A model generated the notes under the pieces. That model saw only the letters and a list, made by a program, of their open reading frames with translations, was not told the origin of the DNA and did no database searches. This document shows positions 3,820 through 13,606 of a DNA stretch of 16,018 nt, in pieces (the first letter of the stretch is position 1; each line of letters starts with the position of its first letter). The translations under genes and the position numbers were made by a program. The stretch covers positions 1 through 16,018 of the forward strand of contig JBHGNT010000765.1 of assembly GCA_043228905.1 (NCBI GenBank), given 5' to 3'. The stretch is from Azolla caroliniana (Eukaryota > Plantae > Polypodiophyta).

Positions 3820-3976
3820 GCGTCTTCTGTGTTGACAGGCCGTGCCCCTGTGTTTCTTTGCTCATATGTGACCGGGCGTCTCTCTCTTTCTCTTTCCCCT
3901 TCTATCACTTGCTCTTCGGTTCAAGACCCCGGTGGTCCCGCCTCGTTTCTCCACGCACGCGCGTAACAACCCGACA
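3820..3976 (+). repeat. 3' 157 bp (U5 end) of the 5' LTR of element B
   Basis: Colinear with 9162-9318 with 5 mismatches in 157 bp by manual count; ends CGACA and is followed by CATT and the PBS. Confidence 0.93.
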
Positions 3977-3980
3977 CATT

Positions 3981-3998
3981 TGGTGAACCCGACGTGAA
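3981..3998 (+). promoter_or_regulatory. Primer binding site complementary to the 3' end of cytosolic tRNA-Trp
   Basis: TGGTGAACCCGACGTGAA is the reverse complement of TTCACGTCGGGTTCACCA, which matches the 3' 18 nt of plant tRNA-Trp(CCA) as I recall it; it lies 4 nt after the LTR end. Confidence 0.85.
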
Positions 3999-4020
3999 AC
4001 AGGCGGCAGAGGAGCAGAAG

Positions 4021-6147
4021 ATGAGGGGGTCGGATCTTGCAGAGGCCATGGCTTCGGCCATGGACCGGATAGTGAGCGCGCGCGAGGGCACCGACGCCCT
4101 TGATAGGGCTATTGAGGCGATCATCGGTATGATCGGCCGGTTCAGTGGAAAGGATGCCATGAGTTATTTGGCGTCCTACCGGGCGGAGATGTTGATGAGG
4201 GATATTCCGGAAGAGAGGCGTCTTGCCGGATTCCCTCGAGTGGCGATGCCAGGCATCCATGCGGTGGTGCTCGAGGTCCGGGCGGAGAGCCGGACCTGGG
4301 AGGAGTTCGAAGGACAGCTCCTGGAGAAATACGGGCTGGATGACGCGCTTCGACTTTCGAAGCGGAGCTTCATGGAGTGGGTGGAGTCCCCCAACAAAGG
4401 AAGAAATGCGTCAGTACTCCTCCGGGAGTTTGAGGAACGCTTTGCGCGCCTTTCGGCGCTCGATCAGACCGTTCTGGACACAAGTCGTGTCCTACTGTTT
4501 GTCAAATCGGTTGACGCACGGGATCGGGGGCAAGTGGGCTCCTTACTGGAAACCGAAGACGGGCTGACGACCGATTGGGCTGCGGTAAAGAGAGTCTGCG
4601 GCCGTTTTGAGAAACGGTGGGAGTGGGCTGATACAGAGGCGACCGGGGCGGGACCTTTCGCGGCAAGGAAGCTCGAACCGGTACCACAGGCGCGAAGGGA
4701 AGAGAACCGGGAGTGGCTCGAAACCGGTTCGTCTTCGACCGGCGTGATCAGAGGCTCGTCCGGGGGAACAGCTCTGGAGGAGTTGACACGGGCGGTAAAG
4801 GATCTCCAGATCGCCCAGGCTCGGAGGGAAGGCGGCGATCAGGCTCGTGACCGACGGGCTCCGGCAGGAAGTAGGTGTATGTGGTGCGACGAGGTCGGCC
4901 ACATCCGGAAAGATTGCGGGGACTTTATGGAGGCTTTGAGAAGCCGGGTAGTGTACCTGTGGGAAGGTCGGGTGCACGCCAGTGATACCTGGAGGGCCCT
5001 GAACCGAAACGACGGGAGAGGGGGAATGAAAAGGCTGATGGAAGAGGCGGCTGCCCGGCACGCGGAGACCGTCCACTACTCAGTGTCAGCTGGTATTCGG
5101 GTCGGGGGCAGCGGGGCCCGGAAGGAGAGCAAAGCCGAGTTCTAGCCGACGGTGCTGGAAGGCCTCGCCAGTGCTCGACTAAAGAGAGATGAGGCGGTCC
5201 GCGCTAAGAAGCGGGTCCAGGACGTAACCGGGTGGAGTGACCCGGTCGAAGAAAAGACGAGTTTCGTCGAAGCAGCTTGCAACAACTACGAGGCTCTGGT
5301 TGAAGACAAATGGGTAGGTAAGATCGGAGGGGCCGGGCCCTCACAGAGATACGAAACCCGATTTGGACCGAAACGGAACGAGGCCGGTGAGTCCAGTGCC
5401 TGGGATAACCACAAGAAGGGCGGATACCGTTTGGGCACGGAGATCGAAAGGACCACGGACCTGCGAAAGGTCCTGGAAGAACGAATCCTCGACAACAAGG
5501 TGGAACTGTCGTTGCGGGAGGTGCTCGGGATCGCCAAGAAGGAGTTCCACGACTCCATCGTGGACTTGGTGAAGAGGAAGAGGCTGTCGACGGAGGCAGA
5601 ACCGGAGAGGCCGGTGGAAGTGCGGACGGCGCACATAGAGGACATGGCGCTGGAAGACGAGTGGGCGGAGAGCCACTATTCGAGGCCACACTGGGCCCGA
5701 GCGACCACGGAAACCCCGGTGAAGATCGGGGATGTTCAGGAACCGGTGGTGGCGCTGGTGGACCACGGTTCGGAAATAAACCTGATGTCCATGGACTTCT
5801 ACAAGAAGGGGAAATGGCCGATCAACACTAAGCACGGGTGGAAGATACGGGCGGCGACACGCGCCACCGAGGAGCTACACGGGGCCTGCCCAAACATGCG
5901 AGTCAAGATCGGCGACGTCGAGATAGACCGGAACTTCTTTGTGCAGGAAACGTCCTCGCACCTGGTCATACTAGGGGAACCGTACATTACGGCAGCGCGA
6001 ATGGAGACCAAGGTGCTGGACAACGGGTCGGCTTACGCGAGGGTCAAAAGTCAGGACGGGCGTCATACGGTCCAGTTCCTGACGGTGCGACCGAACCACG
6101 AGCGAAACCGCGAATCCCTCGGTGGCAAGAACCGAGAGGATTTTTAG
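4021..6147 (+). pseudogene. gag: gag-protease ORF of element B with one in-frame TAG (5143-5145)
   Basis: ORFs 3994..5145 and 5152..6147 share one frame; first ATG at 4021; CCHC zinc knuckle CMWCDEVGHIRKDC; aspartic protease-like ALVDHGSEINLM...VILGEPY; the intervening region is reminiscent of DUF4100 (from memory, unverified). Confidence 0.85.
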
Positions 6148-6181
6148 AGAGGGCTGCCAAGGCGTGGGGCCGCGACAGTCC
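6138..6181 (+). promoter_or_regulatory. Candidate -1 programmed ribosomal frameshift signal
   Basis: G GAT TTT at 6138-6144 directly before the TAG of gag-pro; 6-nt spacer; stem GGGCTG (6151-6156)/CAGTCC (6176-6181); the -1 frame is open and leads into the sequence preceding RT. Confidence 0.65.
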
Positions 6182-6534
6182 GGACACTCCGGGAAAACCC
6201 CACAAATGTACGATAGAAGCGAAACCGAAGAAACCTTGTACCATAAGTAGGAAGTTTTGTTTCTCCGACAACGGAGGGTGTACGATAGTCGGCGTCGTAG
6301 GCCAAGAAAAGACAATGGCGGAAGAGCGACTTCGGGCGTGCGGAGTTCTCGTGCCCAGCGAGGAAATCAACGGAGCCGTGGAGGCGGTCTCCTTCGACGA
6401 TACCTTGGGAATACTGCGAGAGGTGGTCGGAGAGGGCCTTAAAGAGGACCGGACGATACCGGTTCGTTCAGAAGAGATGTATGAAGTCATCGCGGACTTC
6501 AGTCGAGGGCTCGAGTCGGATCGGACGGCCCGGG

Positions 6535-11882: not shown

Positions 11883-12000
11883 TATGGCAAGACTCGAACC
11901 CATGACCTTATGCTACATGGGTCGAGCTCTTGACCATTAGACTATACATTGTAATACGTAGAATATTATTTTCATTTATGTTTTATTATAGAAAATTGAT

Positions 12001-12065
12001 GTATATTCCAGATTTCTCTGGAACATTCTAGAAACTTCAGGAGTATTCCTTAGAACACTATAAAA
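12001..12065 (+). promoter_or_regulatory. Heat-shock-element array plus TATA box in LTR C
   Basis: GAAcaTTCtaGAAacTTC at 12021-12038 gives four perfect alternating nGAAn units, within ten phased units at 12001-12048; TATAAAA follows at 12059. Confidence 0.7.
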
Positions 12066-12170
12066 GGAGGCACAAGGCATTATTTCGAACCAAATCGGTT
12101 CAACGCCAGTCTTAAGCCTCCTAGCTACTGTACATTTTCTTCACATAATATATATCTTTTCCTATCATCA

Positions 12171-12188
12171 CTCTCTCTCTCTCTCTCT
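12171..12188 (+). repeat. (CT)9 microsatellite in LTR C
   Basis: Read directly; lies in a longer pyrimidine-rich tract and is followed by three TTAGTACT copies (about 12238-12287). Confidence 0.9.
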
Positions 12189-12296
12189 CCCTCCCTCTCA
12201 CTCACTCTTTCCTTCTCTCGAGAGTTCTTCACCTCTCTTAGTACTAATACTTCTTTTAGTACTAATTCCTTCTCTGTCTTAGTACTGTTCCTGACA

Positions 12297-13606
12297 CCGT
12301 AAGTGATCACACCTACACGACGCACTTGGCCGATGGAAGAGTACAATACATCAACGGGGCGATTAATTCATTAGGAATTTCTATTGATACTTATATAGAG
12401 GAAGTAGACTTCCATGTAATGAATCTTTGTACCACCGATGTAATACTGGGTTATCCTTGGTTTTATAATACAAACTCTTCTTTATTTATTGATTGGGTTC
12501 GCCATTCCATTTCTTTTGTACTGAACGATTGTACGCATTTTATTAAATGTGTAAAAAAACAATCCCTCTCGATTGTTTCCTCGTGTCCATCAATATCCGA
12601 GTTGTCTTGTTCTACGTTATTTTATTGTGTACTTGATCCGGACATTCACGTTTACAATATCGATAATGTCTCGGTTCAATTAACATATTTTGAACAACAA
12701 CAACTTGATGAAATCTTAAATGATTTTCATGATGTTTTTCCAAGTGAACTACCTGATGGGTTACCTCCTAAACGTAATATAGACCATCGTATAGATATTG
12801 TACCTGGTGTTGCACCAATAAGTATACCTCCGTATCGCTTAAGTCGATTCGAAGAAGATGAGGTATCTAAGCAACTCAAGGACTATTTACGAATGGGTTA
12901 TATATGTTATAGTAAATCTCCATGGGGTGCACCAGTTCTCTTGGTTAAAAAGAAAGAGGGCACATGGCGTATGTGTATTAATTACCGATGCTTGAATAAA
13001 GTGACGATCAAGAATTCGTATCCATTGCCCCGGGCTGACGATCTAATTGACCGTCTCCAGGGAGCTCGGTATTTTACGAAACTTGATCTCCGTACTGGCT
13101 ACCATCAAATACGAATAAGTGAGGACGATGTTCCTAAAACGGCATTTCGTACGCGCTATGGCCATTACGAGTTTTTGGTTATGCCTTTTGGTTTGACCAA
13201 TGCTCCGGCTACTTTTCAACAAGAAATGAATGACATTTTTCGAGAACAACTTGGAAAATTTGTCGTTATTTTCTTGGATGATATTTTAGTTTATAGCCGT
13301 ACATTACAAGAACATGCTAAACATGTCCGCTTTGTTTTACAAACATTGCGTGACAAACAATTTTATGCGAAGATCTCAAAATGTGAGTTCTAAAAGAAAT
13401 CAATTACTTATCTTGGACATCTCATAACCGAACGAGGAGTTGAAATTGATCCTTCTCGCATTGAGAAAATCAAGCTTTGGCCCACTCTTCGGAATATTCG
13501 AGAAGTTCGATCATTCCTTGGTTTTGTCGGGTTTTTGCGAAAGTCTCTTCGTAATTACTCCCAATTGACGACGCCATTTACTGATCTTTTAAAAGGTCAA
13601 ACACGT
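12297..13606 (+). pseudogene. pol: Element D: internal fragment of a Ty3/Gypsy pol (protease C-terminus and RT), chromovirus-like, cut by C on the left and E on the right
   Basis: LADG...DVILGYPW (protease end), [45 protein letters not shown] at 13391-13393, after which the frame continues (TYLGHLI...VRSFLG...TDLLKGQTR) to the E LTR. Confidence 0.9.

What the first reader, a model, noticed from the sequence alone, without database searches (positions are those of the whole stretch)
3820..13606. All four insertion sites read N-CG-N: possible CpG-centred integration targeting
Seen: the bases directly after each 3' LTR terminal CA, in element orientation, are GCGT (A, 3820-3823), CCGC (B, 9319-9322), CCGT (C, 12297-12300) and ACGT (E, minus strand of 13603-13606). 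CG is at positions 2-3 in all four, across two different Gypsy lineages, and two of the sites are in AT-rich element D where CG is less common. Inference: with a 4-bp target duplication CG would be the symmetric centre of the integrase cut. These integrases, three of them without a chromodomain, may then select CpG or methyl-CpG. That would steer them into CpG-rich methylated retroelements and reinforce nesting. Caveats: n=4, only one side of each junction is visible, and the boundaries rely on the CA convention.
Basis: partly seen in the sequence, partly recalled or inferred. Interest (0 to 1): 0.8.

Follow-up and report, generated by a model that had tools for sequence, protein, structure and literature searches.

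The report
Phygy-like retrotransposons insert at CG
Three of the four jumping genes here belong to a plant lineage that inserts with a CG pair at the centre of a 4-base target, a habit already published for the moss Phygy elements; the fourth site is likely chance, and any role of DNA methylation is untested.

Summary
The four N-CG-N sites are real. Elements A, B and E are related chromodomain-less Ty3/Gypsy elements with the features of the Phygy clade. Neumann et al. 2019 already report 4-bp NCGN target duplications for Phygy (n=186). In other copies of the A/B family, CG sits one base from the LTR in 15 of 17 5' flanks and 9 of 11 3' flanks, against 3.1% background. This mirror geometry fixes a 4-bp, CG-centred cut. 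Element C is a Tcn1/Tf1-Sushi-like chromovirus. Majority letters of 172 contigs at its family's LTR start show no CG, so its CG is likely chance (p about 0.05) and 'two lineages' is not supported. The flanks are not CpG-rich (observed/expected 0.71), and methyl dependence could not be tested. Likely mechanism: direct target reading by the integrase at a sharply bent central CpG step. One lead: an invariant Glu at the PFV Ala188 position (77 of 77 locatable). The scan noted NCGN duplications before, in a fungal genome (e1-10582392). Verdict: real but largely known.

The parts
3..2951 (+). Element A pol (RT-RH-integrase), no chromodomain, acidic tail
2193..2204 (+). DRGE motif of A integrase; the Glu aligns with PFV Ala188
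3023..3819 (+). A 3' LTR (TGTCG...CGACA), after a purine tract at about 3010-3022
3820..3823 (+). A target site GCGT, inside B's 5' LTR; the matching place in B's 3' LTR is 9162-9165
3820..3976 (+). Remainder of B's 5' LTR (96.8% identical to B's 3' LTR over 158 nt)
3981..3998 (+). Primer-binding site of B, conserved in L023 and L030; tRNA-Trp type by recall only
   Evidence: one search gave no tRNA to confirm the type
3977..8671 (+). B internal region (gag-like ORF, protease-region ORF, broken pol lacking the RH stretch)
8672..9318 (+). B 3' LTR
9319..9322 (+). B target site CCGC, inside C's RT
9319..11874 (+). Element C internal region (Tcn1/Tf1-Sushi-like chromovirus, broken frames)
11875..12296 (+). 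C 3' LTR
12297..12301 (+). C insertion site CCGT(A) in D; likely a 5-bp site with a chance CG
12297..13606 (+). Element D fragment (protease region to RT/RH), host of C and E
13603..13606 (-). E target site ACGT in D
13607..14388 (-). E 3' LTR (TGTCG...CGACA)
14376..16016 (-). E pol end (integrase, 59% identical to A), no chromodomain

Best explanation
A, B and E are chromodomain-less Phygy-like Ty3/Gypsy retrotransposons whose family inserts with CG at the centre of a 4-base target, likely because the integrase itself selects that sequence, while the CG at the chromovirus C site is likely chance. Shown: the CG lies exactly one base from the LTR on both sides in other A/B-family copies, which only a 4-bp, CG-centred cut explains. 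Inferred from PFV and other 4-bp integrases: the two active sites need a sharp bend at the central pyrimidine-purine step; that alone would also admit CA, TG and TA, so base-specific contacts probably narrow the choice to CG. The invariant Glu at the Ala188-equivalent position is a candidate contact, untested. Methylation is probably not required (inferred by analogy). Nesting is A in B's 5' LTR, B in C, C in D, and E separately in D.
For: 15 of 17 distinct 5' flanks have CG at -3/-2 and 9 of 11 3' flanks have CG at +2/+3; no other offset has more than 2. 19 of 22 in a conservative set against 0.031 background, p=4e-26. Three of the four exceptions are TG or CA, the decay products of methylated CG. 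One more B-type LTR start is preceded by ACGT (table 5c). A and E fall in one clade apart from C. No PF00385 in the 120 listed relatives of A. Phygy: 4 bp (100%), NCGN, tRNA-Trp 81%, n=186; Tcn1: 5 bp (100%), n=1500. C-family 5' flank majorities end CTTTT, GTTAT and GTTAA for 36, 61 and 75 contigs. 4-bp integrases select a flexible central YR step. ZAM integrase binds its CGCGCg site directly.
Against: No true target duplication was read for any window element, because the far ends are outside the window and no genome is held. Only 2 of 6 LTRs with both flanks have identical 4-mers, which random pairing explains (p=0.26); these contigs may be chimeric. No tree with a named Phygy reference could be built. 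The C-family test is a majority-letter test with no positive control by the same method, and 83 rows were not shown. The one other C-family junction seen (GTAT) falls where the window's D has GCGT. E-family flanks were not sampled beyond one unreadable joint.
Confidence: 0.82

Rival explanations
1. The Phygy-like integrase selects methylated CpG, which gives a chromodomain-free route into silenced repeats.
For: 10 of 28 flanks lie within about 350 bp of retroelement coding sequence (lower bound). Target CGs decay (3 of 27) about as often as LTR-end CpG columns (8 of 66), so they are probably methylated now. Phygy is reported among lineages enriched at liverwort centromeres. The invariant Glu differs from the neutral compact residues of retroviruses.
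Against: Decay after insertion says nothing about the state before it. Flanks are not CpG-rich. One 5' flank lies in a host methyltransferase-family sequence (L024). ZAM integrase binds CGCGCg oligonucleotides in vitro, and its paper never mentions methylation. There is no genome baseline for the repeat share.
Confidence: 0.12
2. CG-centred targeting is shared by the chromovirus family C too, and heavy CpG decay hides it.
For: The window site is CCGT (chance about 0.047). A second C-family junction reads GTAT where D has GCGT. Two of three majority flanks read T,A at -3/-2. With 60% decay per base the test loses its power.
Against: For a share of 0.86, a CG-free majority arose in 0 of 4000 simulations at decay up to 0.4 and in 4% at 0.5. 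Position -5 is G or C in the five rows at 11875 and 11877, as described for 5-bp AT-centred sites. Tcn1 has 5-bp duplications and no reported motif.
Confidence: 0.07
3. All four sites are chance or a product of how the boundaries were drawn.
For: n=4 in the window, one side only; the loci were found with an exact LTR-start pattern that favours young copies.
Against: 24 of 28 outside flanks have CG at the predicted offset, and the pattern did not include flank bases.
Confidence: 0.01

Closest known systems
Phygy clade of non-chromovirus Ty3/Gypsy elements (Neumann et al. 2019, PMC6317226; passages and Additional file 5 read)
   Same: 4-bp NCGN target, no chromodomain, no extra RNase H, PBS recalled as tRNA-Trp type, coding region filling the interior.
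   Different: Described there as specific to Physcomitrella patens. The estimated intact length of B (about 7.1 kb) is below the reported range of 7.7-10.0 kb.
Ginger1 DNA transposons (Bao et al. 2010, PMC2836005; passages read)
   Same: Gypsy-type integrase, 4-bp duplication with central CG (CCGG 75%, CCGT/ACGG 24%).
   Different: DNA transposons with terminal inverted repeats in animals. Here ACGT and CCGT dominate (7 and 4 of 17 5' flanks).
ZAM of Drosophila (PMC2527525; passages read)
   Same: LTR element whose integrase itself binds a CG-containing target.
   Different: Longer CGCGCg site plus a second binding site; a different lineage.
Prototype foamy virus intasome (Serrao et al. 2015, PMC4422553, passages read; best PDB sequence match, E 2.6e-19)
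   Same: 4-bp stagger with a flexible central YR step.
   Different: Weak preference for any YR step, and a small neutral residue at 188; here near-strict CG and Glu.
Tcn1 (Tf1/Sushi-related) chromoviruses, for element C
   Same: Chromodomain in close relatives; next relatives named from fungi, vertebrates and Closterium.
   Different: No named Tcn1 reference was compared; C's duplication length was not read directly.

Membership tests
Phygy (A, B, E) | 4-bp target duplication | tested here: met
   CG one base from the LTR on both sides; both-sided identity alone is inconclusive, 2 of 6
Phygy (A, B, E) | NCGN target preference | tested here: met
   24 of 28 flanks for the A/B family; E only by its own site
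Phygy (A, B, E) | No chromodomain | tested here: met
Phygy (A, B, E) | No additional (archaeal-type) RNase H, which separates it from TatI | tested here: met
   No such Pfam hit in the window ORFs scanned or among the domains listed for 120 relatives
Phygy (A, B, E) | PBS complementary to tRNA-Trp | tested here: inconclusive
   PBS present and conserved; tRNA type recalled; 0 of 31 loci held a tRNA and one search found only unrelated papers
Phygy (A, B, E) | Phylogenetic grouping with P. patens Phygy references | not testable with these tools
   REXdb FASTA too large to read; named relatives were Riccia only
Phygy (A, B, E) | Length 7.7-10.0 kb | tested here: inconclusive
   B is deleted and truncated; estimate about 7.1 kb alignments
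Tcn1 chromovirus (C) | Chromodomain after the integrase | tested here: inconclusive
   PF00385 in the closest relatives; the window's broken tail gave no Pfam hit
Tcn1 chromovirus (C) | 5-bp duplication without a sequence motif | tested here: inconclusive
   No CG majority, and G/C at -5; no individual duplication read
Tcn1 chromovirus (C) | Self-priming instead of a tRNA PBS | not tested
   C's 5' end is outside the window

The most novel reading that the evidence does not exclude
Probability: 0.12. Interest if true: 0.7.

Novelty: new member of a known kind. Interest (0 to 1): 0.22.

Why it matters
As it stands, it extends a published target rule (NCGN of Phygy) to another family and probably another plant group. 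Near-strict sequence choice is rare among plant LTR elements, and my searches found no study of its mechanism or of methyl dependence. If the integrase needed methyl-CpG, that would be a direct link between DNA methylation and where a retroelement lands.

Tried and rejected
No whole genome is held, so far ends could not be read. Viral-contig scans gave nothing useful: 0 matches, 0 relatives, 10 loci at 35-42% identity, not used. Both-sided duplication from 6 apparent solo LTRs was rejected as proof: 2 of 6 identical, p=0.26. Confirming the tRNA type failed. No named Phygy reference among members of 10 clusters. Two motif scripts miscounted (located 35 of 120, none) and were replaced. An E-type LTR end joined to D near 13368 in three runs was unreadable. 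PMC7466625 passages gave nothing on target sites. A template switch between the related A and B LTRs was rejected for the 3819/3820 junction, because A ends at its canonical terminus and B resumes mid-LTR.

Full report
Anatomy. The window is a stack of five Ty3/Gypsy pieces. A (pol 3-2951, 3' LTR 3023-3819) sits in the 5' LTR of B (remainder 3820-3976, PBS 3981-3998, 3' LTR 8672-9318). B sits in the RT of C (to 11874, LTR 11875-12296), C sits in D (12297-13606), and E (minus strand, LTR 13607-14388) sits in D separately. All four far ends are outside the window, and no genome is held.

Observation. The four 4-mers are as stated. Using host CpG frequencies (0.078, 0.049, 0.047, 0.047), the joint chance is 8e-6 at a fixed offset and 1.4e-3 allowing any dinucleotide at any of five offsets. 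The boundaries are supported by terminal inverted repeats, by family contigs and by 13 further LTR ends.

Two lineages. The A and E integrase regions are 59% identical, while A and C are 23% identical over RT to integrase; a tree of 37 rows separates them with full support. B is 84-90% identical to A in DNA over pol. A's 120 listed relatives (of 262) carry no chromodomain, and the named ones are from Riccia. C's closest relatives carry PF00385, with named hits from fungi, vertebrates and Closterium, as expected for the Tcn1/Tf1-Sushi group.

Test on the A/B family. An exact LTR-start pattern found 25 loci in metagenome contigs. I dropped 7 starts preceded by the purine tract (internal 3' LTRs) and 1 duplicate (L035), leaving 17 5' flanks: 15 CG, 1 TG, 1 CA at -3/-2. 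LTR ends were found in 13 of 25 loci; 2 were followed by the PBS and dropped, leaving 11 3' flanks: 9 CG, 1 CA and 1 TCCA at +2/+3. Background CG in 8,102 flank bases is 0.031; 19 of 22 in a conservative set gives p=4e-26. CG one base from the LTR on both sides fits only a 4-bp cut with CG at its centre. Six LTRs had both flanks, but only 2 had identical 4-mers, which is what random pairing gives (p=0.26), so these contigs may join flanks of different copies and are not proof of duplication. That these loci come from the window's species was not established.

Test on the C family. Contigs of three runs were laid on C's LTR start. The majority letters before the terminal TG ended CTTTT (36 contigs), GTTAT (61) and GTTAA (75); two smaller rows ended GTACC (9) and CTACC (12). 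None shows CG in a 4-bp or 5-bp register. In simulation (assumed background A/T 0.31, C/G 0.19), a CG share of 0.86 never gave this result in 4000 runs at decay up to 0.4, gave it in 4% at 0.5 and in 68% at 0.6; a share of 0.3 gave it in under 1% at decay up to 0.3. Against this reading: 83 rows were not shown, there is no positive control by the same method, and the one other individual C junction (GTAT) lies where the window's D reads GCGT. Once three sites are explained by the Phygy-type rule, C's CG needs only a 5% chance.

What is known. Neumann et al. 2019 (PMC6317226; passages; Additional file 5) state that Phygy elements prefer NCGN: 4 bp (100%), tRNA-Trp 81%, n=186, while Tcn1 has 5 bp (100%, n=1500). 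Additional files 1 and 3 (per-element duplications, reference proteins) were too large to read and would bear on the exact NCGN share and on membership. Jedlicka et al. 2019 (PMC6911290; passages) report GC-rich centres in 4-bp duplications and frequent Phygy-in-Tcn1 nesting in P. patens, the arrangement of B in C here. Ginger1 (PMC2836005; passages; lead from e1-10582392) and ZAM (PMC2527525; passages) show CG-centred choice in other Gypsy-type integrases. Phygy is also reported in a liverwort (PMC12885004; passages).

Mechanism. Shown: sequence and register of the target. From established work: 4-bp integrases bend target DNA sharply at a central YR step, and PFV Ala188 contacts bases outside the duplication (PMC4422553; passages). 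Inferred: bendability alone would admit CA, TG and TA, so near-strict CG needs base contacts. A's integrase aligns best to PFV integrase among solved structures, with Glu at the Ala188 position. This Glu is present in 77 of 77 relatives where the motif was located (81 of 120 had the anchor; 4 not located) and in 0 of 75 C relatives. Kin share residues, and Ala188 acts outside the central pair, so this is a lead and not an explanation.

Methylation and steering. Not testable here. Flanks have GC 0.42 and CpG observed/expected 0.71. At least 10 of 28 flanks are near retroelement coding sequence, with no genome baseline and a likely assembly bias toward unique flanks. Target CGs have decayed in 3 of 27 cases, LTR-end CpG columns in 8 of 66; that suggests methylation after insertion only. 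Searches found no paper testing methyl dependence (search listings only).

Verdict. A real and strong target rule for a Phygy-like family, already described for Phygy; the cross-lineage and methyl-CpG parts are unsupported or untested. Interest 0.22.

Noticed in passing
window 6534-6849: Perfect 158-bp tandem duplication inside B's pol; a recent duplication or an assembly slip.
   Followed up: no
window 7433 (against A 585-1776): B lacks about 1.2 kb of pol covering the end of RT and RNase H.
   Followed up: partly
window 6138-6147: The protease-region ORF ends in a GGATTTT run overlapping the next frame, resembling a -1 frameshift site (recalled motif).
   Followed up: no
window 3023-3819: A's LTR is 797 bp against 659-678 bp for six full LTRs in the loci, and includes a palindromic stretch at 3175-3218.
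   Followed up: no
L011-L035 5' flanks: The first base of the target is A or C in 17 of 17 5' flanks and the last is T in 11 of 17, suggesting a finer preference than NCGN; 3' flanks are looser.
   Followed up: partly
window 5146-6144: Weak Pfam DUF4100 hit in B, also present in several Riccia relatives; recalled as a Physcomitrella-based family.
   Followed up: no
L024 1355-1630: An A/B-family LTR starts directly in a host methyltransferase-family (PF03141) sequence, with a weak PPR hit nearby.
   Followed up: no
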